Position numbers and translations under genes: made by a program. Positions 33,292 through 49,889 of a stretch of 64,000 bases of DNA are shown here, piece after piece; the first letter of the stretch is position 1; each line of letters opens with the position of its first letter. Source of the stretch: a virus (taxonomy: Duplodnaviria; Caudoviricetes); IMG/VR virus record IMGVR_UViG_3300020577_007690, positions 10,782-74,781 of that record. One strand, written 5' to 3'. The notes under the pieces are model-generated. The model saw only the letters and a program-made list of their open reading frames with translations. It was not told the DNA's origin and did not search any database.

Positions 33292-34011
33292 CTACGGCGG
33301 GGATTCGTCGGGGGTGTTGACGGCGATACCGACGCGGGGCTTGACGACGGGGCGGGCGACGACGCGGATCTGAGGGCAGGAGACGCTGACCGTACACCAC
33401 GCCTTCCACCGACCCTGACGAGCAGCGACGCCTGCCTCCTCGTAGCGCATCTTCATCTCGGCGGCGTAGACGGCGCGCACCCCGTGGTAGTGCGGCAGCT
33501 CCAGCTCGAAGCCGGCCTGCGGGTCGGAGCCAGGGAGTCCCTCGGGGTTGAAGTCGTCCTCCAGCATCTTGCAGAGCCACATGCGAGACGGCTTGTCCTG
33601 CGACACCATCTCGATCTGGAGGCTCTTGCGATACTCGGCGGGTCGCGCGCCGTAGAACTTCCAGCCACCGCGCGCGTACTTCCCGCTCGGGTTGACGACC
33701 ATCTCCAGCTCGTTGGAACGGGTGATGATGTTGCTCATCCCCTTCGGCTCGTACATGCCGTCATCGCCAGCGCCTTGCACGCCAGCGACAGGGAGCACCG
33801 CCTTCTCATCGAGATCGCCGAAGGTGTCGTAGACCTTCGTGAACGCGAGCGTGCGCCCAGAAGGTGTCTCGATGGAGAGCTGCTGGAGGTACTCGGCGAG
33901 CCCGCGGCGGACGGCTGTCTCCAGATCCGCCTCGCAGCGATTCGTCAGCGGCTTCTCGACGTCGCGTGCGTGCTCGATGAGACGTGACAGACCGTCGAGA
34001 TGGGTGTACAT
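33292..34011 (-). CDS. Tail terminator/neck protein
   Basis: Position immediately upstream of the sheath; size. Confidence 0.55.
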   Translation of the reverse strand: MYTHLDGLSRLIEHARDVEKPLTNRCEADLETAVRRGLAEYLQQLSIETPSGRTLAFTKVYDTFGDLDEKAVLPVAGVQGAGDDGMYEPKGMSNIITRSNELEMVVNPSGKYARGGWKFYGARPAEYRKSLQIEMVSQDKPSRMWLCKMLEDDFNPEGLPGSDPQAGFELELPHYHGVRAVYAAEMKMRYEEAGVAARQGRWKAWCTVSVSCPQIRVVARPVVKPRVGIAVNTPDESPP

Positions 34012-34181
34012 CAGCCCTTCTTCCGCAGCGCGGGCACGAGGCGCTTGTTCCCCGGACCCTTCTGCTTCTCCTTCAGCTCCTCAGTGGCGCTGTGGCCCTC
34101 CTCCTTCGCCTCGCGTGCCACGTCACGCGCGGTGATGCGCTTTCGCATGGGAGCGTCTTTTTTCATGGCGCAGCCGTTCAT
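34011..34181 (-). CDS. Small basic protein with MNGCAMKK leader (56 aa, not in ORF track)
   Basis: ATGA overlap upstream and TGATG overlap downstream. Confidence 0.6.
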   Translation of the reverse strand: MNGCAMKKDAPMRKRITARDVAREAKEEGHSATEELKEKQKGPGNKRLVPALRKKG

Positions 34182-34408
34182 CGCTTGCCGCCCTTCCCAG
34201 GGTAGCCCTGGTGCTTGATTGTGACGAACGGCAGCGAGCCGATCGGAGCGTGCGTGTCACCGCTCACGAAGAAGCCGTGCCCTCCGCCTGGGTGCGCCCC
34301 TGCCTTGCGCTGCGGAGGTAGGCGACGCTCGTGGTTCAGATCGCGCACGGTCTGCTCCGCCAGCACCTTCGCTGGGGAGGGACCGTTCGTGCCGGTGCTC
34401 TTGCTCAT
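34178..34408 (-). CDS. Small basic/Gly-rich protein
   Basis: GGAG SD; ATGA overlap. Confidence 0.55.
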   Translation of the reverse strand: MSKSTGTNGPSPAKVLAEQTVRDLNHERRLPPQRKAGAHPGGGHGFFVSGDTHAPIGSLPFVTIKHQGYPGKGGKR

Positions 34409-34875
34409 GCTTTTCTCCAACTCTCGATGAGGGCGGTCTTCACAGCTCGTCTGAGGATCATTCTCATCTGCCTGCGGCTCGACCGCAAGATCCGCTTTCC
34501 GACGAGGCCGCGCTGGGCGATCTTCCGTCCGATGAGGAAGGCAGTGCTCTTCGCCTGCGCGCCTGTCTGCCCGAAGCGGCGCTGCACCCATGCCAAGATG
34601 ACGTCTGGAGGCGGCGCCTTCCCCGGAGCGCGCCCGTTGTCGATGAAGCCACTGCCGGGGCGGATGTTGACGATGCGGACGCTCTTGCCGCGCCGCACGA
34701 CACGCCAGCCTGCCGCGAAGCCTCCTGTGTCCACCCCCGCCGCCTGCGACTTCTGCTGAAGCATCGGCAGGCACTCCTGCGCGCCGCGATAGAGACCCTC
34801 GCGCTGCGCAGCTTCGAGCTTGCCTCTGTAGCTGCGGAGCTTCTTGGCAAACTGTGCGAGGGTGATCTTCGGCAT
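34405..34875 (-). CDS. HK97 gp10-like neck/virion morphogenesis protein
   Basis: VDTGGFAAGW...GRAPGKAPPPDVILAWV...IGRKIAQRG. Confidence 0.7.
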   Translation of the reverse strand: MPKITLAQFAKKLRSYRGKLEAAQREGLYRGAQECLPMLQQKSQAAGVDTGGFAAGWRVVRRGKSVRIVNIRPGSGFIDNGRAPGKAPPPDVILAWVQRRFGQTGAQAKSTAFLIGRKIAQRGLVGKRILRSSRRQMRMILRRAVKTALIESWRKA

Positions 34876-35393
34876 CAGCGTCGCGCGCTCGCATCGCGCA
34901 GCACAACGACTTCCTTCTCGCTCTTCCCCTTCCCCAGCACCTTGTCAAAGTCGATGGCGGCGGTCTTTCCGTTCACCTTGATGGACGTCGGCTTCTTCTG
35001 TCCAGGTGACTTGAAGAACATCGCCCCTTTCTCGGATCGACTGTACGCCTGTGGTGCTCGCGTTGCGATGATGCCGCCACGGTGCAGAACGGTGTCGCCG
35101 GGATGAAGATCGGCGAGATGCCCGCCTTTGACAGTGTGCGGAAGAAGTTGCTTCATCGCCTCCTTGACGTGCGGTGGGGCCACTTCGTCTTGCTGCCAGT
35201 GCGAGACAATCGTCTTGACGATGAAGTCACGCTGCGGAGAACCAGGACGCAGCAGCTTTTCGAGTCGAGGCCCCTTGAGCTTGAACACGTCGCCGACAGA
35301 GAGGCCCTTCTTGTGCGAGTCGGGGTTGTTCCCTCGACCGACACCCGGCATCTCGACGTCTTTCCGCGGTCGCTTCATCGACGGTCCGTACAT
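34875..35393 (-). CDS. Basic protein with MYGPSMKR...MPGVGRGNNPDSH leader
   Basis: GAGGG SD before ATG 35393. Confidence 0.7.
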   Translation of the reverse strand: MYGPSMKRPRKDVEMPGVGRGNNPDSHKKGLSVGDVFKLKGPRLEKLLRPGSPQRDFIVKTIVSHWQQDEVAPPHVKEAMKQLLPHTVKGGHLADLHPGDTVLHRGGIIATRAPQAYSRSEKGAMFFKSPGQKKPTSIKVNGKTAAIDFDKVLGKGKSEKEVVVLRDASARR

Positions 35394-35400
35394 CGTGCCC

Positions 35401-35991
35401 TCAGTCGATGTTGGCAAAACCAAGGAAGCGGTGAGAACCGCGTAGTCCCTTATGAAGTTCAATTATCGACACGGATTCCCGTACGTGAACTTTTGCAGGG
35501 AAGTCTCCTTCATTCGCACCGATCGTGTCGATGAGCAGGTTCAGCACGTTGATGCGGCGGAGCATGTTGACGTGCCCGGCGCGGCGCTTGATGTCTCGCT
35601 CGTAGAAGAGCACCGCGGCGCGGTGCATCGCCTCTGCTAGGTCTTCCGGCGTCGGGAAGCCGGTGACGTCTCGGTAGAGGCCGCGCAGGATGTAGCCCTG
35701 CCGCATGCGCTCAGCGGATATGCTGCGGGGCATGCCGGACTTCGCCCGCGTGTGAACGAGCGACACCCAAGCAGCGCACCACATATCACCGGGGCGGCGC
35801 GTGCGCGGGTTGTCGTAGTTCAAACACTCGATGACGAACGGACCTTCGTTGTTGCCGCCCTCCTCTCCCTTGCCGATGTCCTTGTCCGCCTCAGCGAGGA
35901 CGATGTCCGCCATCGAAAGGATGAGCTTCTCCGTGGGCGCCAGTGAGAGCGGCAGCGGGATCGCAGGATCGGTCTTGTCAGCGTCGCTCAC
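35401..35991 (-). CDS. CHAP-type (Cys/His) peptidoglycan hydrolase, likely endolysin
   Basis: GEEGGNNEGP...WCAAWVS...AGHV...TIGAN; catalytic Cys and His present. Confidence 0.75.
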   Translation of the reverse strand: MSDADKTDPAIPLPLSLAPTEKLILSMADIVLAEADKDIGKGEEGGNNEGPFVIECLNYDNPRTRRPGDMWCAAWVSLVHTRAKSGMPRSISAERMRQGYILRGLYRDVTGFPTPEDLAEAMHRAAVLFYERDIKRRAGHVNMLRRINVLNLLIDTIGANEGDFPAKVHVRESVSIIELHKGLRGSHRFLGFANID

Positions 35992-36000
35992 GTTCGTCTC

Positions 36001-36360
36001 CTACCAGAGTCCGTGTTTCTCTCGAAGCTGTGCAGCGCGTTGACGCATGATATCGCCCTTTGCAATCTGCTGCGGCGTCCTTCTTTCCGGCCTGCCGCTA
36101 GGGATGTGCGCCATCAACGGCAGCATGCTGTTGATGTGACGTTCGATGGTGCTGACTCTGTTTTCTGCCAGCCCTCTTCTCTTATCTTCGCTATCTCTAG
36201 AAAGACGCTTCTTGTCGCTGTAGGACAGATCTGGATCGTTCCGTTCCATCTTGAGCTTCGTGCCGGGTGTGATTCTCTTCCTGACGTGACTCGCCGGGTT
36301 GTTGCCACGACCGACGCCAGGCATCTTCGCGCCGCTGCGTTTCATCGACTTGCCGTTCAC
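36001..36360 (-). CDS. Basic protein with MNGKSMKR...MPGVGRGNNPASH leader
   Basis: GTG start overlapping the upstream TGA. Confidence 0.65.
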   Translation of the reverse strand: MNGKSMKRSGAKMPGVGRGNNPASHVRKRITPGTKLKMERNDPDLSYSDKKRLSRDSEDKRRGLAENRVSTIERHINSMLPLMAHIPSGRPERRTPQQIAKGDIMRQRAAQLREKHGLW

Positions 36361-36893
36361 GACTGCATCTCTCCGTTCCGCGCGCGGTCTTGCTGGGCGC
36401 GCTCCAAGCTCACGTTCCACCCGAGCGTCTTGTACTCGGGGTTCGACTTCAGGTGGAAGCGGCGCTGGTAGCTCGCTCCGTTGTGTCCGAGGAACTCGAT
36501 CTCCCAGAATACCGTTGCATCACTCTGTGGCGGCGTACCGTCGTCATCGTGCCCGCGCAGCTCTTCCTCGGTGTAGTTCGCGTTGATCTTGGACACCATG
36601 ACCGTACCGACTTCGAACATGCCGCCGCTCTCGACGCTGTTCTCCACGCTCCCCATCCCTTCCACCTTCGGCGTCGGCAGGATGTTACGCACGAGATCGA
36701 CGTACTCCTGACCCTCTCCGACTGCGAGTCCGCTCCATCGCGTACGCACGATGCGGACGTGCATCGGCCGCAGACCGAAGAAGGTGAGCAGATCGCGCAG
36801 ATCGGGGACAAGGTCCGTCGCCAGGTCACGCGCGAGCGCCTGCTTGAAGTCCTTGAAGTCGAGCAGGGTGAACTTCTTCTCGTCGACTGACAT
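36357..36893 (-). CDS. Head closure/stopper-like protein
   Basis: Beta-rich; follows the adaptor; TGATG coupling. Confidence 0.6.
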   Translation of the reverse strand: MSVDEKKFTLLDFKDFKQALARDLATDLVPDLRDLLTFFGLRPMHVRIVRTRWSGLAVGEGQEYVDLVRNILPTPKVEGMGSVENSVESGGMFEVGTVMVSKINANYTEEELRGHDDDGTPPQSDATVFWEIEFLGHNGASYQRRFHLKSNPEYKTLGWNVSLERAQQDRARNGEMQS

Positions 36894-37288
36894 CAGCACA
36901 CCGTGACGTTGCCGACGCCGCAGTCCACATCGACACCGCCCGCGTTGATAGGACAGTTGAGGAGCTGTCCGAGGCGCTCTTGCTCGGCGCGGTACTCCCG
37001 CCGCAGATCCTTCAGGTAGTCCTCGCGGAGATCGAGATCTTCCAGCTTCGAAGCGATGAGCGCCTTGATGCCCAAAGTGCGCTGAAGCTCCAGGTTCTTG
37101 TCGAGCGCGCCGATGCACCCCTCGATGAAGGGGATGGCGGCCTCGGGGACGCGCTCCATGGCCCCGATGATCAAATACATGGGCTGGATGCTGATCGGGA
37201 TGCCCGCAGCGTACGCCTGCCCCTCGTTGACGAGGGGGTAGCCCATGTGGAACTTGATCTTCTGCTTCAGCGGTTCGGAGAGCGGCAT
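36893..37288 (-). CDS. Head-tail adaptor-like protein
   Basis: Small helical protein (KIKFHMGY); first gene of the neck operon; leaderless-type start. Confidence 0.6.
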   Translation of the reverse strand: MPLSEPLKQKIKFHMGYPLVNEGQAYAAGIPISIQPMYLIIGAMERVPEAAIPFIEGCIGALDKNLELQRTLGIKALIASKLEDLDLREDYLKDLRREYRAEQERLGQLLNCPINAGGVDVDCGVGNVTVC

Positions 37289-37337
37289 GGCTCGATTCTA
37301 CCATGCCGGGAGGGTGGGCCTGTGGCCCAGGAGGGGG

Positions 37338-38006
37338 CTAGCGGGTGGGGCCGTAGTACAGCTCGTAGACGTCGGGCGGGAGCTGCTTGCGCATCCGGTC
37401 GTAGCCCTGCTCACCGAGGTGCTCGACGCGGTAGATCTGACCGGCGCTTGCCGTCGTCATGCCGCCACCAGGCACCGAGACAGCGTAGTCCATCTTCATC
37501 TTGATGGGCGGACGCTCGCCGTGCTTCTCCTTGTTGGCCTCGTGCAGCAGCACTTCGAGCCTGCCCTTCGCGCGGGCGAGCAGATCCATGAAGGTGCTGA
37601 GCAGACCGTGGTCCTCGTCGGGCTTGATGGGCTCGGCGTCCTCGTGCAGGAAGCGCGAGAAGAGCTGCGGGAGCTGCGCTAGCTCACCGAAGCCGCTGTC
37701 ATCCACGACGCGGTTGATCTGATCGTCGAGGGTCGCGATGTGCTTCTCTGCTGCCGCGAGGTTGCTGCGCAGCGTCGTGATCTCATCCGCCTGCTGGTTC
37801 AGCTTCTCGCGGAGGAGGGTGTTCTCCTCCTCTGCGCCACGGAGGAGCTTCTGCGTCTCCGCGAGCTGGATCTGCGCGTCGGCAGGGATCTCGACCTTGG
37901 GCTCTTCGAGCGGTGGCTCCGGCGGCTTCGCATCCACCTTGGTCTGCTCGGTGCTCTCGGGCTTCTTGTCGTTCTGCTGCGGCTTCTTGTCGTCGTTCTT
38001 CGCCAT
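37338..38006 (-). CDS. Coiled-coil, charged protein of unknown function
   Basis: GAGGTG SD; heptad-rich central region. Confidence 0.7.
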   Translation of the reverse strand: MAKNDDKKPQQNDKKPESTEQTKVDAKPPEPPLEEPKVEIPADAQIQLAETQKLLRGAEEENTLLREKLNQQADEITTLRSNLAAAEKHIATLDDQINRVVDDSGFGELAQLPQLFSRFLHEDAEPIKPDEDHGLLSTFMDLLARAKGRLEVLLHEANKEKHGERPPIKMKMDYAVSVPGGGMTTASAGQIYRVEHLGEQGYDRMRKQLPPDVYELYYGPTR

Positions 38007-38450
38007 CAGATCACCTCGTGAAGAAAAATCATGGGAGAGAGGATATCACGCGCACCGTCGGACTTACGGCTTCTTTCGGCGTTAGCCACCCGTGCCTTCT
38101 GGCGCCCCGTGCGGGCACGCTCCATCCTCTCCCCCATGTGCTCTCCGCGGTCCCTACTACCCCGAAGGAGAGCCTTCACCAGTGACCCAAGCGACTGCTC
38201 GGCAGCATCCTCGGCGTTACGCGCGCCTCTACCCAGCATGCACACGACCATCTCCGGGGAGAGATCGGCGTACTGGACGGACACAAGGTCCGCTCGGAGA
38301 CTCCCACTTACTGCCGCCGAAGCGGCCTCCGTCAGGAAAGGCGCCGCACTCGCAATCGCTCGCTGGTGAAGCCGCTGTCGGACCCTCCGGGTCACAGATG
38401 CCCGACAGCAAGAATTGGTGAACACGAGAGGAAGCCTATAAGATCAGACC

Positions 38451-38798
38451 ATGAATGGCAAGCGCATGCGCCGGTCCGACGTCAAGATGCCCGGCGTTGG
38501 CCGAGGGAACAACCCGAACAGCCACAAGAAGTCGAGCAAGATCGTGCCCAAAGACTCTGTGGTCGCATACGCTCGTCTGGGAAGTGGACACGCTTCAGGC
38601 TCGCCCGCACATCGCGCCCACTTTGAAAATCTGGAGAAGCTGCTGCGCCTGACCTACGGGAGCGACAAGGCGACGCACAGAGCGCTCGCCAAGCACCACG
38701 ACAAGCTCTTCGATGCGGCAAAGACTGCGGGCGACGCGAAGGAGAAAGCAGCGCAGGCCAAGCTGTCGCTCATCCACGAGCACATCGGCACTGAATAA
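38451..38798 (+). CDS. Basic protein with MNGKRMRR...MPGVGRGNNPNSH leader, antisense to the late cluster
   Basis: TAAGAT-6nt-ATG start; His/Lys/Ala-rich. Confidence 0.7.
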   Translation: MNGKRMRRSDVKMPGVGRGNNPNSHKKSSKIVPKDSVVAYARLGSGHASGSPAHRAHFENLEKLLRLTYGSDKATHRALAKHHDKLFDAAKTAGDAKEKAAQAKLSLIHEHIGTE

Positions 38799-38836
38799 AA
38801 AAACAGCCCCCGGCGCCACACAGACACCGGAGGCTG
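38797..38836 (-). terminator. Intrinsic terminator after the major capsid gene
   Basis: CAGCCTCCGG/CCGGGGGCTG stem followed by T7 on the minus strand. Confidence 0.8.
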
Positions 38837-38863
38837 GGGGCCTCTGCGAAGAGGAAGGGAGGG

Positions 38864-40294
38864 CTAGCCAGAGCAGATCGCCATGCAGCGCTTGTAGCGC
38901 GCGGCGTCGCCGACGACGCCATCGGGGCGCGTCGAGTAGGCGGCGACGAACTTCCAGGCCATGCCGATCTGATCGGCGTGCCGGTTCTTGGCGGCCTGCA
39001 TGATGAAGCTGACGTCCTGGGTGTAGATCGTCATCTCGTCGACCGAGAGGCTCGCGTCGAACTGGCCGACGAGCCCGGTGACGCCCGCGTCCGTCAGGTA
39101 CTGGTCCTGCTTCTGGATGTACTCCTTCAGCAGACCAGCGCCGAGCAGCAGCGAGTGGAAGACCGGGTCGCCAGTCGGCGTGCCGTCGTTCGTGGTCTCC
39201 GCGCCGACCGGGTCCGCCTCGGAGTAGGTCGCCGAGGGACCGCCGACCTTGGTCGACCCCGCCGCCGAGTCCTCGCCGAAGGTCCAGGTCAGGTTGTTCT
39301 CCAGCCAGATGCAGCCGACGCCGATCCGCTGCACCTGCTCGACGAACAGGAAGAAGTCGGGCAGGTTCGCCAGGCCCGTCTCCGTGAGGCGCTGGAACTC
39401 CGGGTCCGCCATGATCTGGCTCATGGGGGTCGGGTCGAGGTGCAGGTGCCAGTAGCCGTCGTCGTGCCGCGCCACGTTCTGCTTGCGGAACCGGGTCGTG
39501 GCGGTGCGGACGTCGGCGAGGGTCAGCTTCTGCGCCGGGGTCACGTCGTCGATGCGGCCCGCGTTGCCGGAGCCCACGCGGTGGATGAAGGTCGCGTCGT
39601 CCGCCTTGACGAGCGCGCGGTCCGCCACGGTGACGGCGGCGCTCAGCAGCAGGACGCCGGGGCCGTAGATGTCATCGGGGATGTCCGGCGTGAAGCCGAT
39701 GACCGTGTTGGCAGTGCCGTTGACGGTGATCTTGAGCGGGTTGGTGCTCGACACCGGCATGTACTTGACGACGGCGGTGAGGCGCAGATCGGGGCGCCGC
39801 GCTGTCGTGAAGCCGTTGATGCGCGCGACGCGCAGCGACGTGACAGCGTTCTGCGCGCCGTCGGCGACGGTCCAGCCAGCCAGGGCCGCGTTGTAGAGCG
39901 GCGCGCGGCTGATCTTGTTCAGCGACTCGCCGCACTGCACGCCCAGGCTGTGGATCTCGACGAACAGCGTGTTGACGATGCTGTTCGCGGCGGCGACCAT
40001 GTTGACGTCCTGGGCGCCCTCGTCGGGGTACAGCTTCAGCTCGGCCTCCCACTGCTCCAGAGGCGTGGTGATGACCTTCGGGTCGTTGCCCGGGGTCAGC
40101 GGCTTGGCCGACGGACGGGCGCGGCCCTTGGCGGTGAAGGTGCGACGCTCGCCCGCGTGCCCCTCCCACTCCTCAGGCTCGCCAGCCTCCGCGCGCCACA
40201 TGAGGGCGGGCATGAGACCGTCGAGGATGCGGCGAACGAGGAAGCCCTGCTGGACAGCGGCTTGCAGCTCCGGGGTGTTCAGGATAACGGCCAT
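38864..40294 (-). CDS. Major capsid protein
   Basis: EQWEAEL...LGVQCGESLNKISRAPLYNA pattern of N4-gp56-like capsids; strongest codon bias; follows scaffold; own terminator. Confidence 0.85.
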   Translation of the reverse strand: MAVILNTPELQAAVQQGFLVRRILDGLMPALMWRAEAGEPEEWEGHAGERRTFTAKGRARPSAKPLTPGNDPKVITTPLEQWEAELKLYPDEGAQDVNMVAAANSIVNTLFVEIHSLGVQCGESLNKISRAPLYNAALAGWTVADGAQNAVTSLRVARINGFTTARRPDLRLTAVVKYMPVSSTNPLKITVNGTANTVIGFTPDIPDDIYGPGVLLLSAAVTVADRALVKADDATFIHRVGSGNAGRIDDVTPAQKLTLADVRTATTRFRKQNVARHDDGYWHLHLDPTPMSQIMADPEFQRLTETGLANLPDFFLFVEQVQRIGVGCIWLENNLTWTFGEDSAAGSTKVGGPSATYSEADPVGAETTNDGTPTGDPVFHSLLLGAGLLKEYIQKQDQYLTDAGVTGLVGQFDASLSVDEMTIYTQDVSFIMQAAKNRHADQIGMAWKFVAAYSTRPDGVVGDAARYKRCMAICSG

Positions 40295-40336
40295 CTATCT
40301 TCTCCTTCTATCGTGGGCCGTGCCCAGCGAATGGTC

Positions 40337-41401
40337 TTACTCTTGCTGCTCCGCCATCTGGCGGCGCATCGACTTGATGGGGGCCTGCGTCTGACCCCCA
40401 GCGGCCTGGCGGCCGAACTGCCTGGCGAACTCCGAGGCGACTTGCGCCTTGGACGTCTTCGGGTTCATCACCTTGTCGCGCGTGCTCGCCGCGGGACCGC
40501 CTGCCGCCGCCTTCGCCGCCGAAGCAGCGTCAGCGGGGCGCTCGTCACCCGCGCGCGTCCCCGTGTTGGCGGGACGGCGGGGGACCGGCGGCGCCGCCGG
40601 AGTCTCGGTCTCGGTCTGCGTGGCGCTCTTGAAGTAGTAGGCGGCGGCCTCGGGGTCCTTCTTCAGGGCGTCGAAGCAGACCTCCTCCCACAGCTTGAGG
40701 CCGTCGGGGGAGGCGTTCAGCTCCTCCACGACCTCATCCGGCAGCTCACCGAGGATGCGCTGCGCGTACGCCTCGACCTCCCGGATGCGGCTCTGCTTGA
40801 TGCCGAAGTGCTTGACGGCGAGGGTGCGGAACTCCTTCCAGCTCTCGTCGTGCTCGGCCTGCGCCTGGGCAGCCTGCTCCGCAGCCTCGCGCTCCTCGCG
40901 CCAGGACTTCTGCTCGTCGAGCTGGTCCTTCAGCTCCTTGAGCTGCGTCCCGTACTCGGCGTCGAAGACCGCCTTGGCGCGCTTCAGCCACTCCTCTTGC
41001 GACTCGCCTGCCTTGGGCGGCGTGACTTCCGCCGCCGCAGCCTGCGCCGCGTTCTTCGGCGCAGCCGGGGCGTCCTTGCCCTTGTCGGACGCGGGCGGTG
41101 CGAGCTTGCTCTTCAGCTCCTCGACGCTCGCCAGGCCCAGCTCCTTGAGCAGCAGCTTGGTGCCCTTCTCGCGCTCCGCTCGCTTGATCTGACCGAAGCT
41201 GCGCGTCGGGATGTGAACCATCCCGACGTCTGCCTCCGTGTCCGCGTCCGCGTCCACCTTCTTCGGCGGCTTGGCACGCGCCTGCTCGCTGTTCTGCCGC
41301 TGTCCCTCGGACTGGACGGTCGGCAGCACACCCAGCTCGGCGCGCAGAGCATCCTCGGATTCGAACCCCAGGGCCTTCAGCTTCTCCAGTGAAATCGGCA
41401 T
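40337..41401 (-). CDS. Capsid scaffolding protein
   Basis: Ala/Glu/Lys-rich helical protein directly upstream of the capsid gene. Confidence 0.75.
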   Translation of the reverse strand: MPISLEKLKALGFESEDALRAELGVLPTVQSEGQRQNSEQARAKPPKKVDADADTEADVGMVHIPTRSFGQIKRAEREKGTKLLLKELGLASVEELKSKLAPPASDKGKDAPAAPKNAAQAAAAEVTPPKAGESQEEWLKRAKAVFDAEYGTQLKELKDQLDEQKSWREEREAAEQAAQAQAEHDESWKEFRTLAVKHFGIKQSRIREVEAYAQRILGELPDEVVEELNASPDGLKLWEEVCFDALKKDPEAAAYYFKSATQTETETPAAPPVPRRPANTGTRAGDERPADAASAAKAAAGGPAASTRDKVMNPKTSKAQVASEFARQFGRQAAGGQTQAPIKSMRRQMAEQQE

Positions 41402-42729: not shown

Positions 42730-42939
42730 TCAGACGTTGCCGAACTTGCCCTTGACGCTGTAGCACTTCTTCTGCGCGGGCGGCGCCTGCTTGAACGGGT
42801 CCTCCGCGCTGGTGTTGTGCTGGGTGAAGTTGGTCCCCGGCTGGCGACCGTAGATCGAGTCGATCGCCTCCTTGGACGTGACCTTGCCGCGACCCGCCGC
42901 GACCTCTCGTGCTCCGTTCGATGGCTTCGCCATGTTCAT
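42730..42939 (-). CDS. Small hypothetical protein
   Basis: AAGGAG SD; strong GC3 bias. Confidence 0.6.
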   Translation of the reverse strand: MNMAKPSNGAREVAAGRGKVTSKEAIDSIYGRQPGTNFTQHNTSAEDPFKQAPPAQKKCYSVKGKFGNV

Positions 42940-42965
42940 GCTCCTTCAGATGGTGCGATCGGGGA

Positions 42966-43754
42966 CTAGAACTCCAGCGCCCTGATGCGGTAGAGGATCT
43001 CGATCTTGAGTGGGCTGTTGCCCGTCGTGATCTCGCCGGTCAGCATGTGCGCCACGATCGCCGCGTTCGCGACCGGCTCGACGTTCGCCGCCAGATTGAT
43101 CGGGTAGGTCAGGCGGTGTGCGTCCGCGGTCGCGTCGAGGAAGCCCGTCGTCTCGATGGCGGTCAGCATCTGCGCGCCCGAAGCATTCGTCCACTTGAAC
43201 GAGATGTCTTCGCCCGCCGCGATGCCCGCGTACGCCGCCGAGTTGTAGTCGAGCCAGGCGTGCAGCGAGATCGGCTCGATGAACAGGCCCGCGCCCGGTG
43301 CGGCGATGAGGGTCTTCGGCGTCGCGTTGAGCGCGAGCAGCTCCGCCGACGAGATGGTCACGGTCGCGCGCTGCACACCGCCCAGCTCCTCGAAGACGAT
43401 GTTGCTGCTGCCGAGCGTGAAGCTTGACACGCCACGCGCCTTGAAGACCTTGTTCTTGTTGACGGTGCCCTGGCTGACCGGCACCACCATGTCCTTGCAC
43501 TGCGCCGTCGTCGCGGCGTCGACCGCGCGCGTCAGCGGCGCGGTGCCGGTGGCGACCGTGCCCACCGTGTAGATCCCGTTGGCGGTCTGCGACGCCTGGT
43601 CCTTGACGAGGAGCCGATCGCCCTGGACAAGCGTCACGCCGTCCTGGGTGACGCTCGCTGCGGTCAGATCGGAGATGGCCGCGGTGGTTGCCGCGACACA
43701 GGCCGCCTTGAAGTTGCCCTGGCCCGCGCCGTACTGTGCCTCTTGTCCGCTCAT
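42966..43754 (-). CDS. Head/tail fibre-like protein
   Basis: DGVTLVQGDRLLVKDQ...NGIY...RAVDA, a common phage fibre domain. Confidence 0.7.
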   Translation of the reverse strand: MSGQEAQYGAGQGNFKAACVAATTAAISDLTAASVTQDGVTLVQGDRLLVKDQASQTANGIYTVGTVATGTAPLTRAVDAATTAQCKDMVVPVSQGTVNKNKVFKARGVSSFTLGSSNIVFEELGGVQRATVTISSAELLALNATPKTLIAAPGAGLFIEPISLHAWLDYNSAAYAGIAAGEDISFKWTNASGAQMLTAIETTGFLDATADAHRLTYPINLAANVEPVANAAIVAHMLTGEITTGNSPLKIEILYRIRALEF

Positions 43755-43768
43755 GTGCGTTCAGCTCC

Positions 43769-44353
43769 CTAGTTGTGTGCGGCGGAGGACGCCACGATGT
43801 CGACGGCCATGTTCCACTGGATGTTCGTCGCCGCCTTGCCCGAGACGCGGACGGTCAGGATGCTGCCGCTCACCGAGAAGGCAGGATCGGAGACGACGCC
43901 GATCGTGTCGACGTCCGGCGTCGGCGTGAGGGGCATGCCGACGTCGATGACAGCCACACCGCCCTCATGGTACGCCGACAGCACGCGCTCGTAGCGGATG
44001 TGCCCAGCGGCGTCCTGGTCCTTCGCGGAGAAGATGAAGTGCCCCGAGAAGTGCGAGTTCTCCGGGAGCGTCCACGTCCAGATGACGTCGCCGCCAGCGC
44101 CCGTCGTCTCGATGGACGCCTGACGATAGTCGTCGAACGGATCGTAGTCGTCGAAGCCGTTCGCTGGGACCTTCGACAGCTCGATCGTCTCCAGCACCAG
44201 CTCGGCGGGCTTCTTGTTCAGGCCCCCAAGGAGCGTCAGGACAGCCGCGACCTCATCGCGCAGGTAGCCGATGACACCCGGCTTGAGCGCCTTGTTGTAG
44301 GGGCGCGGGAGCGTGAAGGGCTCTTTTCCGTTGTAGAAGAACTTGGTCGGCAT
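43769..44353 (-). CDS. Structural protein of unknown function
   Basis: Start reassigned to ATG 44353 (TATCAT-6nt-ATG); strong GC3 bias only from there. Confidence 0.65.
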   Translation of the reverse strand: MPTKFFYNGKEPFTLPRPYNKALKPGVIGYLRDEVAAVLTLLGGLNKKPAELVLETIELSKVPANGFDDYDPFDDYRQASIETTGAGGDVIWTWTLPENSHFSGHFIFSAKDQDAAGHIRYERVLSAYHEGGVAVIDVGMPLTPTPDVDTIGVVSDPAFSVSGSILTVRVSGKAATNIQWNMAVDIVASSAAHN

Positions 44354-44448
44354 GAGCCGATGATAGGGGCAAATCGGCGAGAGATGCAAACGTTCAGTAT
44401 TGATCTCGTCATTTACCGTCGGTACGGTTCGCACCGAAAGAGGGACAA

Positions 44449-44661
44449 GTGGTCAAAATACCTAGCTTCACCATCGCTGATGCAACCGGAACGGTCATCG
44501 ACTTCGTGTCCCCTGACGATGGAAGGCGCTACCAGATCACGGTCCGCCTGGCAGTCGTTTCGATAACGGATAACGGATCGCAGGTGGATATGAACAAGGA
44601 CAGATTCAAGGTCGATGGGATCGTGAATATGACGGTAGAGGCGAAGGCGAAGGGGTCCTAA
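44449..44661 (+). CDS. Small antisense cargo protein
   Basis: GAGGGA SD; lower GC than neighbours. Confidence 0.45.
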   Translation: MVKIPSFTIADATGTVIDFVSPDDGRRYQITVRLAVVSITDNGSQVDMNKDRFKVDGIVNMTVEAKAKGS

Positions 44662-44897
44662 CAGCACTTCCCACGGAACTTGCTCTGCACCTCGTAGTAG
44701 GGGCACAGCAGACAATACTTGCGGCACGTCTGCATCTCGCACGTCGGATACTTGTTCGGGTACGGCTTGACCCAACTGTCGCAGTGCCAGATGTCGCTCA
44801 TCATGTGGTCGCAACGAATGCCCTGTGAGAGGGCGGGCGCCGCAAACACGGCGATGAGCGACAAGCAGAGCAAGGCGTCGCGCAAGAACGAACGCAT
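44658..44897 (-). CDS. Secreted Cys-rich peptide (8 Cys in the mature part)
   Basis: Signal peptide ending PALS-Q; mature region ends in CC. Confidence 0.55.
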   Translation of the reverse strand: MRSFLRDALLCLSLIAVFAAPALSQGIRCDHMMSDIWHCDSWVKPYPNKYPTCEMQTCRKYCLLCPYYEVQSKFRGKCC

Positions 44898-45178
44898 CAC
44901 GGTTTCTTCGGCGGAGCGCGCTTGATCACGAGGAAGCGTTCGTCGAGAAGGTCCCCACGCTCGACGCTGAACTGGTAGCGCTCCTCCATCACCTTCAGCA
45001 CCTCCATGCGGCGGGCTCGCGCCGGGGCGCACACGCGCTCCTCCTCCAGCACGGCACGCGCCAGAGCGTCGCTGTCAGCCTGCGAGAGGCGATCGGGCGG
45101 GGTAGGGGCGCCCGCCTTGGTTGGCGAGCAGGCCAGGGCGAGCAGAGCACCGAGGAAGAAGATCTGGAGCCGGCGCAT
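44897..45178 (-). CDS. Lipoprotein (possible spanin-like)
   Basis: LLALA-C lipobox followed by a Pro-rich then helical segment. Confidence 0.6.
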   Translation of the reverse strand: MRRLQIFFLGALLALACSPTKAGAPTPPDRLSQADSDALARAVLEEERVCAPARARRMEVLKVMEERYQFSVERGDLLDERFLVIKRAPPKKP

Positions 45179-45498
45179 CACTCCTCCTCCACGACGAGAG
45201 CGCGGGCGGCCTCCAGAGCGGTCACGGCGGCGTTGTAGCGGACGCTGACGGAGTCGCGCGTGGCCCGCAGCTCGACCAGCACGTCTTCCTGATCGAGCTT
45301 GAGGCGCGTCTTCGCCCGCTTGTCCTCGTCCGTGGCGGTGTCGCTCAGCTCCGCTACAGCCAGATCGGCGACCCGGGTCGCCAGGATGGCTTCCGCAGCG
45401 GCAACGCCAGTGTCCTGTTCGGTCAGCATGGCTTCCAGCACCGTCTTGCGACGGGCGGCGAGGTTGACAGCGGTGTTTTTCTCTCTCAGCGTGGGCAT
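45178..45498 (-). CDS. Coiled-coil protein
   Basis: GGAGG SD; Ala/Glu/Leu heptads. Confidence 0.6.
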   Translation of the reverse strand: MPTLREKNTAVNLAARRKTVLEAMLTEQDTGVAAAEAILATRVADLAVAELSDTATDEDKRAKTRLKLDQEDVLVELRATRDSVSVRYNAAVTALEAARALVVEEE

Positions 45499-45552
45499 TC
45501 AGTACCTCCGCGAGCACTGTGCTTCAACGCGAAATGCCGTGTCAAGCGGTTG

Positions 45553-45885
45553 CTACGAGCAATGCCCTTTGACGCACGTCTGATCGACCTGGCATCGCGC
45601 GGCGCAGTTGCCGCAGTTGATCGGATCGTTGAAGAAGTCGACGCAACGCCCCCCGCAGCACAGCCACTGCACTTCGTCGATGCGCGTGACGCCCAGATCG
45701 GGGTTGCCGACCACGCCGAAGTCGTAAACGTCGGTGCGGCACGGCCCGCAGCCGCCGCAGTTCTGCGAATCAGACGCGAGCGGACCGGCCGTTACCGGAA
45801 CGCAGACTTGATCTGTAGGAGGAAGAGAGGCTGTGCAGGCAGAAGCAACGACCAGAGCGGGCGTCAGCTTGCGGAGAATGTGCAT
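45553..45885 (-). CDS. Cys-rich lipoprotein with myxobacterial/Stig1-like repeat
   Basis: VASA-C lipobox; DSQNCGGCGPC and CVDFFNDPINCGNCAARC...CVKGHC. Confidence 0.7.
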   Translation of the reverse strand: MHILRKLTPALVVASACTASLPPTDQVCVPVTAGPLASDSQNCGGCGPCRTDVYDFGVVGNPDLGVTRIDEVQWLCCGGRCVDFFNDPINCGNCAARCQVDQTCVKGHCS

Positions 45886-48332
45886 GTCAAACCAGCTCCA
45901 TTGTTAGCACTCGCGTTCGTCACACCCTTCATGGAGACACGATCGCCAGCAACAACCGTGAACGTGTCCGACACGTTGTTACATGACGTGCCGGGATCGG
46001 TGATCGTGCATGCCGTAGCCTGATCTGAGCCGTTCTTGCGTACCGTCGAGACCAGTGTGCCAGCGCCGCCACCGCCTGGAGCGGTGCCCATGTAGCAGTA
46101 CAGGTTGCGGATGGTCATCGCCTTCGTCGCGATGAACACCGGGTTCTCGCCCGCAGACCACGTCACGCCTACCGCGTTCAGGTAGCGCGTGGTGCCGGCG
46201 GCCAGCGCGCCTTCGGCGCCCGCAGTGAACACGCCAGAGACGATGCCGGTCAGACCCGAGCCGTCCCCGGAGATGGTGCTACCGAGCGACACAGCACCAT
46301 CGAAGCGGGAGGTTCCGGCCTGCACCCAAAGCGCGTAGGCGTTCGTGATGGTGGCGTTCGTTCCAGCAGCGGGCGCGCCGCTGATCGCCACAGTGGCCGC
46401 GTTGGTCAGCGTGCTGGCGCCGACAAAGGCATAGGTCGCTGGCTGGAAGAGGTACTGCCGTTGCGTCGTGAGCGCGCCGGTCGCAAACTGCACCGTGCGG
46501 GTGCCGTTCCAGTTCCAATCCGGCTTTTCCGTCGAAGCGGTCAGGGCGGTGTGCGCGCCGCCCGTGTAGATGTAGCCGTTCGCAGTGCCGCCGCTTACGG
46601 CGTTCTGCGTGAGGTTGACGCGCGCCGACAGAATCGTGCCGGCGCCCTGCGGCATCGACCACGTACCCGTGGCATTCGAGCCGAAGAAGTAGCCGGTGCC
46701 CGCCTCGAAGCCAAACCCTTCGTTGGCCGAAACAAACACTTCGCCGCTCGTCCCAGATACGCGCAGCGACGTAGTTCCTCCGATCTGAAAATAGATGTCG
46801 CCGACGGTACTTGCCTGCCCTGTGTTGAGTACAATGTTGCCGCCATAGCTGGAGTACAGATTCAGGCTGAGGCCGGAGTAGACCGTCAAATTCGACGACA
46901 CGCCCGACTGCACGGTGATCCCGTTGCCACCGCTGACGGTCGTGGTCGAGTTGTTGGTCCCGATCTGGGTTGTCGATGTGCCGTACAGCGTCGCTGCCGT
47001 GCTGGAGATGGTGAGGCGCGAGTTGCTGTTGACGATAAAGCTGATCGATTTGCCAGAGGCGCCCGCGTAGTTCCAGGAGCCAGTGGGCATCGACGTGTCG
47101 CCGGTCCCACTCCCGAGCGACAAGCCGCCCGTGCCCGCGGCCATCAACAGAGACTTGTTCGCTGCGAGCGTGGTCGTCTGGGCCAGCGTGATCGCCGTGG
47201 CCGTCGTCGTGCCGAGGGCCAACGTCCCCGCGCTTGGCGAATCAAGTAGCGGCGTCAGCAGCGAAGTCGAGCCCGTGAGCGTCGTCACCGATGGCGTCGC
47301 GCTGTACGCCGGAGCGACACCGACCCCGCCGGAAGTGAGCACCTGGCCCGTCGCCACGTCCGGCAGTCGCGCCCAGGCGGTCGTGCTGCTCGCGTAGAGC
47401 AGGTCCCCGACCGCCTGCGAGGCGATGAGCAGCTTGTCGGCAGCGAGCTGGTCGGAGGTGATCAGCACGTTGCTGCCCACCGTGAACGTCTTGCCCGTCG
47501 ACAGACTCGTGCTCTGCCTGAGCACGATCGATGTCGCGGTCGTCGTCCCGATGTTGAGCGCGCCCGCCGAGACCGCATCGAGCAGTGGTGCCAGCACGCT
47601 CGTATTGCCGGTGACGGTCGTTCCTGTCACCGCGGCGGGCGTGCTGCTACCGAGTGCAGACGGACTCGCCCAGTTGATGCGCGCGTTGTCGAACGTGCCG
47701 GTGGTGATATCCGACGCGGACGGCATTGCATGGACGTGATCGGCGCGGGAGGCGTCCCCACTGCTACCTGACGCGGCGACGCCGAGAGCAGACGGCGTCG
47801 CGTCACTGAGCGCGGGACCGCTGCCACCGCCAGCACCAGGCTCGATAGAGCCGAGGCCAGCAGACGGTCCAGAGACCTCGTCGATGGCGACGTACGCGGT
47901 CGTCCCCGCCGACTTGTAGACGTGCCAGTGCCTGTTGCCGCGCTTGGTGATGTAGCGGCACAGGGTCAGAGCAGTCGTGACCGTGCAGTCCGATCCATGG
48001 ATGACCCAGCGAGAGTCGTCGCGGTAGTATTCGATCAGGTTGAGCGTTGCCGTGGACGACCCGGTGCGCGCGTAGATGTCAATCCGCACCGTGTCGGCGT
48101 AGAGGCCGCCAGCCACGTTGCAGGAACCGCCCAGCGCCTCGGGGCAGTTGCTTGACGACTGCGAGAGGGACGCGATGGGCGTCAGCGTGACGGCGCTGAC
48201 AGCCACCTTGTCGACCTTCTCTTGTGTGGTCGGCGCCTGGACGACCATCACCGGGCGCAGGTTGTTGGTCAGCGCGACCAGCGAAAGAGCAGAGACCGCG
48301 AGTAGCGCGATCCACTTCGAAGAGATTCTCAT
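45864..48332 (-). CDS. Long Ser/Thr/Gly-rich fibre-like protein with N-terminal signal/anchor
   Basis: Start at MRISSKWIALLAVSALSLVAL; contains the TPSALG..ASRADHVH fibre motif; beta-rich repeats. Confidence 0.7.
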   Translation of the reverse strand: MRISSKWIALLAVSALSLVALTNNLRPVMVVQAPTTQEKVDKVAVSAVTLTPIASLSQSSSNCPEALGGSCNVAGGLYADTVRIDIYARTGSSTATLNLIEYYRDDSRWVIHGSDCTVTTALTLCRYITKRGNRHWHVYKSAGTTAYVAIDEVSGPSAGLGSIEPGAGGGSGPALSDATPSALGVAASGSSGDASRADHVHAMPSASDITTGTFDNARINWASPSALGSSTPAAVTGTTVTGNTSVLAPLLDAVSAGALNIGTTTATSIVLRQSTSLSTGKTFTVGSNVLITSDQLAADKLLIASQAVGDLLYASSTTAWARLPDVATGQVLTSGGVGVAPAYSATPSVTTLTGSTSLLTPLLDSPSAGTLALGTTTATAITLAQTTTLAANKSLLMAAGTGGLSLGSGTGDTSMPTGSWNYAGASGKSISFIVNSNSRLTISSTAATLYGTSTTQIGTNNSTTTVSGGNGITVQSGVSSNLTVYSGLSLNLYSSYGGNIVLNTGQASTVGDIYFQIGGTTSLRVSGTSGEVFVSANEGFGFEAGTGYFFGSNATGTWSMPQGAGTILSARVNLTQNAVSGGTANGYIYTGGAHTALTASTEKPDWNWNGTRTVQFATGALTTQRQYLFQPATYAFVGASTLTNAATVAISGAPAAGTNATITNAYALWVQAGTSRFDGAVSLGSTISGDGSGLTGIVSGVFTAGAEGALAAGTTRYLNAVGVTWSAGENPVFIATKAMTIRNLYCYMGTAPGGGGAGTLVSTVRKNGSDQATACTITDPGTSCNNVSDTFTVVAGDRVSMKGVTNASANNGAGLTCTFSAS

Positions 48333-48481
48333 CGGGGGTCTCCCTTGCCGTTGCTCTTGCGGAGCGTGAGCGTCGCCGTGATGCACAAGCCCACGTTGAC
48401 CACGTCCTTCTGATAGGCGAAGTACGCGGCCAACACCAAGAGGGCGATGGTGATGGCGAAGTTCTGTTGGCGCGTGGTCAT
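48329..48481 (-). CDS. Small membrane protein (holin-like)
   Basis: FAITIALLVLAAYFAY TM segment, basic C-terminus; ATGA overlaps. Confidence 0.5.
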   Translation of the reverse strand: MTTRQQNFAITIALLVLAAYFAYQKDVVNVGLCITATLTLRKSNGKGDPR

Positions 48482-48843
48482 AGGCGCGACCCGTCGAGCG
48501 ACAGCGCCACGTCCCCATCGCCGGAGGTGCGAAGGAAGGCGTAGTACGTCTCGATGCCGAGCAGATCCTTGTAGACGTGGCTGAATCGACCGTCGTCGAT
48601 CGTGGGGTCCGCGCTGATCGCGACGTCGTTGTGGAAGAACCACAGCTTGTGCGACGCGGACCAGTAGATCAGGCGCCCGCTCATCGGATCGTTGCTGACG
48701 ACACCGTTGAGCTGAATCGACGCGCAGCTCAACGGGCGGCAGTATTTCGTCATTGCCTGGTTGGTCGGAGCGAGCGTCGGAAGCGCGCCGATCGCGAGAC
48801 CCGCCTCCGGCACGTTCTCATTCATCATGATCGTCAGAGCCAT
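48478..48843 (-). CDS. Hypothetical protein
   Basis: GAGGA SD. Confidence 0.6.
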   Translation of the reverse strand: MALTIMMNENVPEAGLAIGALPTLAPTNQAMTKYCRPLSCASIQLNGVVSNDPMSGRLIYWSASHKLWFFHNDVAISADPTIDDGRFSHVYKDLLGIETYYAFLRTSGDGDVALSLDGSRL

Positions 48844-48851
48844 TTACGTCC

Positions 48852-49889
48852 TCACTTCTTGCCCGGCTTCTTGGCGGGCGGCTTCTTGGACTTGGTTCCG
48901 GCTTCCGGCGCCGGGTCTTTGAGCTGCGCCGCCCCTTCTTCGAGCTTGCGTGCTCTGGCGAGCTGCTTGATCGCGTTCTTGGTGTCGCCCGACTCCATGA
49001 ACAGCTCAGCGTACTCGTGGCTCTCCGCCGCCTTCGCCATGCGGAGGTAGTGCTCAGCCGCCTTGCCCTTGCCCTTGGCAAGAGCCTCCTTGGCGCCTTC
49101 CTCGAAGTAGAGACGGCGCCGTCCGTGGTTGACGCCAGCGGGCATCTTCCCTTGGAGCACGGCCTGCTTGTCCGCCTCGCGCTTCGCACCCTCGCGCTTC
49201 TTCATCTCGCGCGCGTTGGCGTCCTTGTAGGCGCTGACCGCCTTGCCAGGTGCGCTCTTGATCGCGTCGACAGCCTTACCGGGCGCAGCCTTCAGACCTT
49301 CCTTCAGGCGAGAGCCGAGTGACTTGGCTCCGTGCTTCACCTGGGCGACCTTGAGGCGGGCGTCGAAGGAAGCGGTCTGCTTGGCCTGCGCCATCTTCAG
49401 CCGCGCGCCGAAGGATGCGTTGCGCCCCGCATCCTTGATCTTGGAGCCGATCGACTGCATGCCAGCCTTGAGGCGAGCGCCGAGCGACTTCTTGTTGACG
49501 GTGTTCTCCGTCGGCTTCTCGGCAGGCTGCGGCTTCTGCCCGTGCGCCGCCGCGTTCACCATGCCTTCGTTCTGGACCTTGACGCCGCCCGTGTGGACCT
49601 TGTTGATCGGCGCGATGCTGTTGATCGCGCCAGGCGCAGGCTTGGTGACGGCTGGCGCGGGCACAGCGCCAGGGTTCCGCTTGGCGAGGAAGTTCTGCGT
49701 GACAGACGGCGTGCCCTGGCGCTTGGCGAGGAAGTTCTTCGCCGCGGACGGAACAGTAGTGGTGCGCGGGCTCGGCTTCTTGCCGTAGCGCACCACGCCA
49801 GCCTCCGTCTTGTAGAAGTTGTGCGAGCCGCGAGCGCCAGGGTTCTGCACCCCCTTGGCTCCGCCTACCTTCATCGCCGAGCCACGCAT
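48852..49889 (-). CDS. Lys/Ala-rich, repetitive DNA-binding/internal-head-like protein with MRGSAMK leader
   Basis: Repeats NFLAKR x2, S[LF][GD][AS]RLK x4 and APGKAV x2; TGATG coupling. Confidence 0.7.
   Translation of the reverse strand: MRGSAMKVGGAKGVQNPGARGSHNFYKTEAGVVRYGKKPSPRTTTVPSAAKNFLAKRQGTPSVTQNFLAKRNPGAVPAPAVTKPAPGAINSIAPINKVHTGGVKVQNEGMVNAAAHGQKPQPAEKPTENTVNKKSLGARLKAGMQSIGSKIKDAGRNASFGARLKMAQAKQTASFDARLKVAQVKHGAKSLGSRLKEGLKAAPGKAVDAIKSAPGKAVSAYKDANAREMKKREGAKREADKQAVLQGKMPAGVNHGRRRLYFEEGAKEALAKGKGKAAEHYLRMAKAAESHEYAELFMESGDTKNAIKQLARARKLEEGAAQLKDPAPEAGTKSKKPPAKKPGKK

What the first reader, a model, noticed from the sequence alone, without database searches (positions are those of the whole stretch)
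34011..49889. Five basic head-region proteins share an N-terminal M-x-G-x-x-M-[KR] leader; three also share MPGVGRGNNPxSH
Seen: the starts are MNGCAMKK (34181), MYGPSMKRPRKDVEMPGVGRGNNPDSH (35393), MNGKSMKRSGAKMPGVGRGNNPASH (36360), MNGKRMRRSDVKMPGVGRGNNPNSH (38451, plus strand) and MRGSAMKVGGAKGVQNPGARGSH (49889). After the leader the five proteins are unrelated in sequence and length (56-345 aa), but all are Lys/Arg-rich and lie among head, neck and portal genes. One copy is inverted. Established: T4 internal proteins share a short N-terminal capsid-targeting sequence that loads unrelated cargo into the head. Inference: this is a portable capsid-loading tag for DNA-condensing or ejected anti-host proteins. 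It could be used to package foreign proteins. No prohead protease was recognised in the window, so the tag may not be cleaved.
Basis: partly seen in the sequence, partly recalled or inferred. Interest (0 to 1): 0.82.

Follow-up and report, generated by a model that had tools for sequence, protein, structure and literature searches.

The report
Portable basic leader on phage cassettes
Five small, very basic proteins in the head-neck gene block of an uncultured phage really do start with the same short peptide. Its invariant core also sits on homing-type nucleases and eukaryotic AP2-like proteins, so it is more likely a movable DNA-contacting arm than a dedicated capsid-loading tag.

Summary
All five ORFs start where stated, and the third uses GTG. 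The DNA pattern for M-x-G-x-x-M-[KR] occurs five times in the window, only at these starts, against about 0.7 expected. The leader is translated and under protein-level selection: the core has only synonymous differences, and three starts overlap the upstream stop codon. In relatives the second Met is Ile, Leu or Arg, so it is not the start.

The leader is modular. Related contigs carry two further leader genes with unrelated bodies. One sits exactly at a gene junction in a backbone 94-95% identical to the window. One cargo occupies a different slot in a relative.

The MPGVGRGNNPxSH core is not capsid-specific. It heads HNH_3 endonucleases in recombination modules of other phages. It occurs twice in an endonuclease-VII-type zinc-ribbon protein. 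It also lies inside intron-bearing eukaryotic proteins, next to an AP2/Arm-like domain. All five bodies are basic too.

Best reading (0.45): a portable nucleic-acid-binding arm on fast-turnover late accessory proteins. Capsid loading (about 0.25) is neither shown nor excluded. One cargo looks like an ADP-ribosyltransferase on weak evidence.

The scan has noted analogous shared leaders in other phages, but none with this sequence.

The parts
34011..34181 (-). m1, 56 aa. It has the pre-core leader only (leader 34149-34181). The NNP core is missing, apparently deleted relative to m3.
   Evidence: The start ATG overlaps the stop of the upstream 76-aa gene (ATGA). A 97%-identical orthologue occurs in L005 and L008.
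34875..35393 (-). m2, 172 aa: leader with core (35304-35393) plus a body of about 142 aa that may have an ADP-ribosyltransferase-like fold.
   Evidence: The ESM-Atlas model (pTM 0.72) is nearest to six ART clusters at TM 0.46-0.55. AlphaFold2 single-sequence models were poor. There is no sequence-level ART hit.
36001..36360 (-). m3, 119 aa: leader with core (36277-36360). The GTG start overlaps the upstream stop (GTGA).
   Evidence: Orthologue P0002 (48% identity) lies in a different slot, between the 149-aa gene and the m5 orthologue in L002.
38451..38798 (+). m4, 115 aa: leader with core (38451-38534). It is an inverted single-gene unit, convergent with the major capsid gene.
   Evidence: Orthologue P0014 has the same convergent arrangement in L006. 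A hairpin terminator lies at 38804-38836 between the two genes.
48852..49889 (-). m5, 345 aa: pre-core plus a rearranged core-like N-terminus (49821-49889). The body holds Lys/Ala/Gly-rich repeats and a Lys/Pro-rich tail.
   Evidence: The start overlaps the upstream stop (TGATG). There is a 91%-identical orthologue P0024 in L009-L012 and a roughly 48%-identical one in L002.
49889..50338 (-). 149-aa Cys-rich (zinc-finger-like) protein between the portal and m5. It precedes leader genes in the window and in L002.
   Evidence: No family hit.
38864..40294 (-). Major capsid protein (context).
   Evidence: tblastn gives 25% identity over 97% of its length to the major capsid protein of Streptomyces phage Kromp, E = 3e-24.
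40337..41401 (-). Scaffold-like charged protein directly upstream of the capsid gene (context). This role is inferred.
   Evidence: Position and composition only. No family hit.
50342..52126 (-). Portal protein (context).
   Evidence: PHROG portal families, E = 1.4e-08.
52250..53899 (-). Terminase large subunit (context).
   Evidence: phrog_38, E = 3e-55.
31137..33170 (-). Tail-sheath-like protein (context; a weak assignment).
   Evidence: phrog_23 tail sheath, E = 4e-04.

Best explanation
The five genes belong to a fast-turnover cassette family of a novel uncultured myovirus-like phage. A portable, intrinsically basic N-terminal module of 11-30 residues has been recombined onto unrelated, themselves basic, bodies. 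The module is a lineage-specific pre-core, M-x-G-x-x-[M/L/I/R]-[K/R], followed in three copies by the invariant NNP core and a Lys-rich junction.

The cassettes sit in variable slots of the late head-neck operons, mostly coupled by overlapping stop and start codons.

The core is a short, undescribed motif. Elsewhere it accompanies homing-type nuclease and AP2/Arm-like DNA-binding modules. So it most likely works as an extended nucleic-acid-contacting arm, in the manner of NUMOD3 repeats or AT-hooks, and not as a capsid address.

On this reading the proteins are DNA-associated accessory proteins made together with virion parts. One of them may be an ADP-ribosyltransferase.

Shown: existence, translation, purifying selection, modularity, slot polymorphism, and the outside occurrences of the core. 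Inferred: DNA binding, late expression, and any virion association.
For: - The pattern occurs only at the five starts, 5 observed against 0.7 expected.
- The core shows synonymous-only variation. It is 100% conserved in orthologues whose bodies are 38-48% identical.
- m2, P0015 and P0022 share an identical 18-residue stretch ending at the Lys-rich junction, then diverge abruptly.
- The P0015 cassette is inserted exactly between m1 and the 239-aa gene. The flanks are 94-95% identical in nucleotides to the window.
- The m3 orthologue sits in another slot.
- The core heads HNH_3 endonucleases (Pfam E = 1.3e-10, above the curated cut-off). These lie beside exonuclease, RecT, methyltransferase and integrase genes.
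- The core heads P0018, which is HNH-like (PHROG E = 0.005). It occurs twice in P0019, behind an endonuclease-VII-type zinc ribbon (E = 3e-09), in an rIIA/rIIB early region.
- The core occurs in about 14 eukaryote-like proteins, one with a retained GT...AG intron. Some carry it downstream of an AP2/Arm-like domain.
- All five bodies are basic, while the proteome median pI is 5.9.
- The leader is modelled as coil with low confidence.
- NUMOD3 repeats are 13-residue minor-groove binders of homing endonucleases (PMC3664794).
Against: - No DNA-binding test was possible.
- The core does not match Pfam NUMOD3 or any other model.
- Support for the AP2/Arm-like and P0018 HNH domains is weak (E = 0.01-0.02).
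- m1 and m5 lack the canonical core yet keep the pre-core, so the common denominator of all five is left unexplained by the outside occurrences.
- Late, coupled expression beside head genes and uniformly basic cargo fit packaged internal proteins equally well.
- None of the five bodies has a recognisable nuclease or DNA-binding domain.
Confidence: 0.45

Rival explanations
1. Capsid-loading tag. The leader docks cargo to the scaffold, the shell interior or the portal of the procapsid. The proteins are packaged uncleaved and ejected with the DNA.
For: - The leader-cargo modularity and hyperplastic slots mirror the T4 internal proteins, which share only a capsid targeting sequence (PMC3012670).
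- The genes are embedded in, and coupled to, head-neck genes.
- The cargo is basic.
- m2 may be an ADP-ribosyltransferase. From my own knowledge, T4 Alt is a packaged enzyme of that kind.
- A late-made host-directed enzyme is only useful early in infection if it is packaged.
Against: - The core occurs in proteins that cannot be capsid cargo: eukaryotic proteins, and HNH_3 enzymes in recombination modules.
- There is no prohead protease and no T4-like cleavage motif.
- Earlier leader findings of this scan were later given low odds for this reading.
Confidence: 0.25
2. Selfish, homing-endonuclease-derived cassettes. The genes descend from free-standing HNH-type elements, keep only the DNA-recognition N-terminus, and spread or persist by recombination, with no virion role.
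For: - The core is shared with HNH_3 N-termini over about 14 residues.
- Presence/absence polymorphism falls precisely at gene junctions in near-identical backbones, one gene is inverted, and an orthologue sits in another slot.
Against: - No nuclease motif is found in any of the five bodies.
- m1 is only 56 aa.
- The bodies are conserved between distant orthologues at 38-48% identity, which indicates selection for a function.
Confidence: 0.12
3. Recognition tag for a co-encoded modifying or processing enzyme, by analogy with RiPP-like leaders.
For: An earlier shared-leader finding of this scan turned out to be linked to one enzyme. The invariant Gly/Asn/Pro/Ser/His core could be a modification site.
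Against: No candidate enzyme co-occurs. The outside occurrences lie in unrelated genomes with no common neighbour.
Confidence: 0.05
4. Paralogy with no shared function. The common N-terminus is a relic of duplication, kept by constraints on translation initiation and stop-start coupling.
For: The second codon, beginning with A, supplies the upstream gene's TGA in m1 and m3 and in L005 and L008. m1 looks like m3 with the core deleted.
Against: The 13-residue core lies well downstream of the initiation region and is invariant despite synonymous drift. It is also conserved across kingdoms.
Confidence: 0.08

Closest known systems
Capsid targeting sequence of phage T4 internal proteins IPI/IPII/IPIII and Alt
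   Same: A short N-terminal peptide is shared by otherwise unrelated, basic, rapidly diversifying proteins. The genes sit among late genes, at polymorphic loci (PMC3012670).
   Different: There is no sequence similarity, no prohead protease and no cleavage motif. The leader is 2-3 times longer and strongly basic. Its core also occurs on nucleases and on eukaryotic proteins. Encapsidation has not been shown.
NUMOD3 / IENR2 minor-groove-binding repeats of homing endonucleases (I-TevI, I-BmoI, I-HmuI)
   Same: Both are motifs of about 13 residues, rich in Gly, Asn and Pro, with a His or Ser and flanking basic residues. Both are modular, sometimes tandem, and attached to HNH-type nucleases (PMC3664794).
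   Different: There is no match to the Pfam model. In the window the motif is N-terminal, on proteins without a nuclease domain. DNA binding has not been tested.
MuF-domain polymorphic toxins of temperate phages
   Same: A conserved N-terminal part is joined to variable C-terminal effectors, and the genes lie just after the portal gene. This comparison rests on my own knowledge.
   Different: A MuF domain has about 250 residues and is detectable by Pfam. None is present here.
Encapsulin cargo-loading peptides
   Same: A short peptide addresses diverse cargo to the interior of an HK97-fold shell. This comparison rests on my own knowledge.
   Different: Those peptides are usually C-terminal and hydrophobic/Gly-rich, and are not basic. 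No binding to the capsid protein could be tested here.

Membership tests
T4-type CTS / internal proteins | A short N-terminal leader shared by unrelated cargo | tested here: met
T4-type CTS / internal proteins | A gp21-type prohead protease is encoded, and the leader ends in its cleavage motif | tested here: not met
   No protease family was found in Pfam, PHROGs or NCBIfam for the ORFs between the portal and capsid genes. The leaders carry no hydrophobic-x-Glu motif at the junction.
T4-type CTS / internal proteins | The proteins are present inside the virion | not testable with these tools
   The phage is uncultured.
NUMOD3 (PF07460) | A match to the family model | tested here: not met
   Pfam scans of m1-m4 at E up to 0.1, and of the m2 body at E up to 10, gave no NUMOD hit.
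NUMOD3 (PF07460) | Association with a homing-endonuclease catalytic domain | tested here: inconclusive
   This is met for outside carriers of the core: HNH_3 at E = 1.3e-10 and an endonuclease-VII zinc ribbon at E = 3e-09. It is not met for the five window proteins.
AT-hook | An Arg-Gly-Arg-Pro core | tested here: not met
   The core reads Gly-Arg-Gly-Asn-Asn-Pro.
R-S-E ADP-ribosyltransferases (m2 only) | The fold, plus Arg, Ser-x-Ser and Glu-x-Glu in order | tested here: inconclusive
   The ESM-Atlas model is nearest to ART clusters at TM 0.46-0.55. Candidate residues R105, S118/S120 and E159/E161 were read by eye. The AlphaFold2 models have pLDDT 44-46. There is no Pfam or PDB sequence hit.
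MuF head-morphogenesis domain | A match to the Pfam MuF domain in the post-portal protein | tested here: not met
   No hit for m5 or for the 149-aa protein.

The most novel reading that the evidence does not exclude
The basic leader is a genuine, uncleaved capsid-loading address in a phage that is not T4-like and has no prohead protease. It loads a changing set of effectors into the head for injection. These include an ADP-ribosyltransferase-like enzyme and a histone-H1-like DNA condenser. On this reading the leader was recruited from a homing-endonuclease DNA-binding motif.
Probability: 0.22. Interest if true: 0.8.

Novelty: new variant of a known kind. Interest (0 to 1): 0.6.

Why it matters
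If the leader binds DNA, it defines a new short modular DNA-contacting motif. That motif would be shared by phage homing nucleases, phage accessory proteins and a eukaryotic AP2-like family, and it would link these groups evolutionarily.

If the leader loads capsids, it would be a second, protease-independent kind of capsid address, and a compact tag for packaging cargo.

Either way, the cassette behaviour shows how a structural operon can host a rapidly changing accessory repertoire. Stop-start-coupled slots, abrupt leader-body junctions and presence/absence in near-identical backbones all point that way.

Tried and rejected
- **Complex prediction** (capsid protein + scaffold-like protein + m4 residues 1-40) was sent five times.
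- **AlphaFold2** on m2, whole and without the leader, as a single sequence, gave pLDDT 44 and 46. That is too poor for a fold search.
- **Family searches**: Pfam, PHROGs and NCBIfam gave no family for any of the five proteins.
- **Homologue searches**: m3, m4 and m5 have only close or few relatives. m2 has none in the phage records or in viral contigs.
- **Capsid-protein relatives**: none in viral contigs or genome contigs.
- **Exact core pattern**: 0 hits in viral contigs and genome contigs.
- **Other patterns**: the Lys variant and the m5-type motif gave 0 hits.
- **Loosest pattern**: it added only 4 non-coding-looking chance matches.
- **Literature**: a search for the motif strings found nothing relevant.
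- **RNA- or DNA-level element**: rejected as an explanation for the leader, because conservation is at the amino-acid level with synonymous drift.
- **Translation from the second Met**: rejected, because of the stop-start overlaps and because Ile, Leu or Arg stands at that position in relatives.
Full report
**What the window is.** The window is 64 kb of a 74.8-kb IMG/VR virus record, estimated 84% complete, with about 62% GC. Most of its proteins have no family. The block that holds the finding can still be placed:
- Terminase large subunit at 52250-53899 (phrog_38, E = 3e-55).
- Portal at 50342-52126.
- Major capsid protein at 38864-40294, 25% identical to that of Streptomyces phage Kromp (E = 3e-24).
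- A weak tail-sheath match at 31137-33170.

All of these lie on the minus strand.

**Observation.** The third starts with GTG. A DNA pattern for the pre-core (start codon, any codon, Gly, two codons, ATG, Lys/Arg) matches five times in both strands of the window. All five matches are at these starts, and shuffles give 0.7. The rest of the record adds one out-of-context TTG match.

m2, m3 and m4 also carry the 13-residue NNP core. 12 of its 13 residues are invariant, while 8 of the 13 codons differ synonymously. So the conservation is on the protein, not on DNA or RNA.

**Start codon.** Three of the five first start codons overlap the stop of the upstream gene: ATGA for m1, GTGA for m3 and TGATG for m5. 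m2 follows a stop by 7 nt. In orthologues the second Met is Ile, Leu or Arg. Translation therefore begins at the first codon, and the second Met is not a start.

**Bodies.** After the leader no pair of the five proteins is detectably similar. All bodies are basic on their own (pI 9.5-10.9, net charge +4 to +40). Only 4 of 61 other predicted proteins exceed pI 10.

**Modularity and turnover.** I built a profile of the core region (A2) and searched it against 1.84 billion representative proteins. It gave 23 hits.

Four of them come from relatives of this phage:
- P0002 is the m3 orthologue, 48% identical. It lies between the 149-aa gene and the m5 orthologue in L002. In the window those two genes abut, so this is a different slot.
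- P0014 is the m4 orthologue. It keeps the inverted position, convergent with the capsid gene.
- P0015 and P0022 are new cargoes. With m2 they share an identical 18-residue stretch that ends at the Lys-rich junction, and then they diverge completely.

The P0015 cassette sits exactly between m1 and the 239-aa gene of L005. Its flanks are 94-95% identical in nucleotides to the window, and stop-start overlap is preserved on both sides. P0022 sits upstream of m1 in L008.

Orthologue pairs keep the core at 100% while their bodies are 38-48% identical. This is the pattern of a portable leader recombined onto changing cargo. It resembles the T4 internal proteins, which share only a capsid targeting sequence (PMC3012670).

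**The core is not capsid-specific.**
- *HNH_3 endonucleases.* A back-translated pattern found the core at the extreme N-terminus of HNH_3 endonucleases in four IMG/VR contigs. Pfam gives E = 1.3e-10 for L017, above the curated cut-off, and several PHROG HNH families match. In L015 that gene lies among exonuclease, RecT, methyltransferase and integrase genes, not head genes.
- *P0018.* It has a leader-like N-terminus on an HNH-like body (PHROG E = 0.005; Pfam HNH E = 0.016).
- *P0019.* It carries two tandem copies of the core behind an endonuclease-VII-type zinc ribbon (E = 3e-09). It lies in the small-gene early region of a contig with rIIA/rIIB-like genes.
- *Eukaryote-like proteins.* About 14 further hits, and two metagenome contigs, carry the core internally. 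L004 shows a retained intron with GT...AG ends that is absent from L003. Some carry a weak AP2/Arm-like domain about 15-60 residues upstream.

From my own knowledge, HNH_3 and AP2 domains occur together in one class of homing endonucleases. These occurrences would then be pieces of one DNA-recognition toolkit.

The closest described analogue is the NUMOD3 repeat, a 13-residue minor-groove binder of I-TevI, I-BmoI and I-HmuI (PMC3664794). The core does not match that Pfam model, so I claim likeness of kind, not membership.

**Cargo hints.**
- *m2.* The ESM-Atlas model of m2 (pTM 0.72) is nearest to six clusters of ADP-ribosyltransferases at TM 0.46-0.55. Read by eye, the body has an Arg (R105), a Ser-x-Ser (118-120) and a Glu-x-Glu (159-161) in the order of R-S-E enzymes, although the Arg-to-Ser spacing is unusually short. 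My AlphaFold2 models were too poor to test this, and no sequence method supports it. I rate it about even.
- *m5.* It has four to five Lys/Ala-rich repeats and a Lys/Pro-rich tail. Its Atlas model is poor.

**Weighing the readings.** The outside occurrences are very hard to explain if the core were a procapsid address, and easy to explain if it contacts nucleic acid. That makes a DNA-contacting arm the best reading (0.45).

It does not settle whether the proteins end up in the head:
- The pre-core shared by all five is lineage-specific and unexplained.
- The genes are coupled to head-neck genes.
- The cargo is uniformly basic.
- A late-made host-directed enzyme would need packaging to act early in infection.

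DNA binding alone would not load proteins, because packaging motors thread naked DNA (my own knowledge). Encapsidation would therefore need a separate procapsid contact. I keep the capsid-tag reading at about 0.22-0.25.

Earlier findings of this scan on other phages describe analogous shared leaders with different sequences. Later checks gave their capsid readings low odds, and one turned out to be an enzyme-recognition tag. I use these only as a caution.

**Novelty.** The motif strings are absent from the held literature. The leader-on-non-nuclease-cargo arrangement was found only in this phage lineage among 1.84 billion representatives. I class it as a new variant of a known kind, namely shared N-terminal modules on diverse phage proteins, or homing-endonuclease DNA-binding motifs.

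Noticed in passing
L003:101-1285(-), L004:217-792(-); proteins P0004, P0005, P0007-P0013, P0016, P0017, P0020, P0021, P0023: A family of marine eukaryote-like proteins carries the identical 13-residue core internally. It often follows a weak AP2/Arm-like domain. L004 has a retained GT...AG intron just upstream of the core, which L003 lacks.
   Followed up: partly
L015:5094-5603(+), L017:3093-3479(-), also L016 and L018: HNH_3 endonucleases of high-GC temperate-phage contigs begin with five residues and then the same core. In L015 the gene lies between a methyltransferase-like gene and an integrase, near RecT and exonuclease genes.
   Followed up: yes
L013:835-1158(+): A 107-aa protein combines an endonuclease-VII-type zinc ribbon with two tandem copies of the core. 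It lies in the small-gene early region of a 47-kb contig with rIIA/rIIB-like and ligase-like genes.
   Followed up: partly
window 54275-55042(-): A NUDIX-domain protein (E = 2e-11) lies just upstream of the terminase region and is conserved in relative L009. Some NUDIX enzymes act on ADP-ribose, which may or may not relate to the ART-like m2.
   Followed up: no
window 57704-58564(-): A D12-class N6-adenine DNA methyltransferase (Pfam E = 1.6e-37).
   Followed up: no
window 45864-48518(-) and 42966-43754(-): A long Gly/Ser/Thr/Ala-rich fibre-like ORF and a 262-aa protein that matches head-decoration/fibre PHROGs (E = 2e-15) lie between the portal and scaffold genes. This is an unusual place for fibre-like genes.
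   Followed up: no
window 38804-38836: A strong 14-bp hairpin with a T-run lies on the minus strand directly after the capsid gene. It sits between the convergent capsid gene and m4.
   Followed up: partly
window 8097-8195 / 8439-8537: A 99-nt inverted repeat, 97% complementary, with 243 nt between the arms.
   Followed up: no
window 9716, 10344, 20755, 22614, 63196 (plus an inverted copy at 3576): A repeated 25-nt box that begins CTGAACGAACGTC. Five direct copies are 72-100% identical.
   Followed up: no
window 34178-34408(-) versus L005:1-126 and L008:16-375: The slot upstream of m1 holds three different genes in three near-identical backbones: a 76-aa basic protein here, an unrelated acidic C-terminus in L005, and the leader gene P0022 in L008.
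   Followed up: partly
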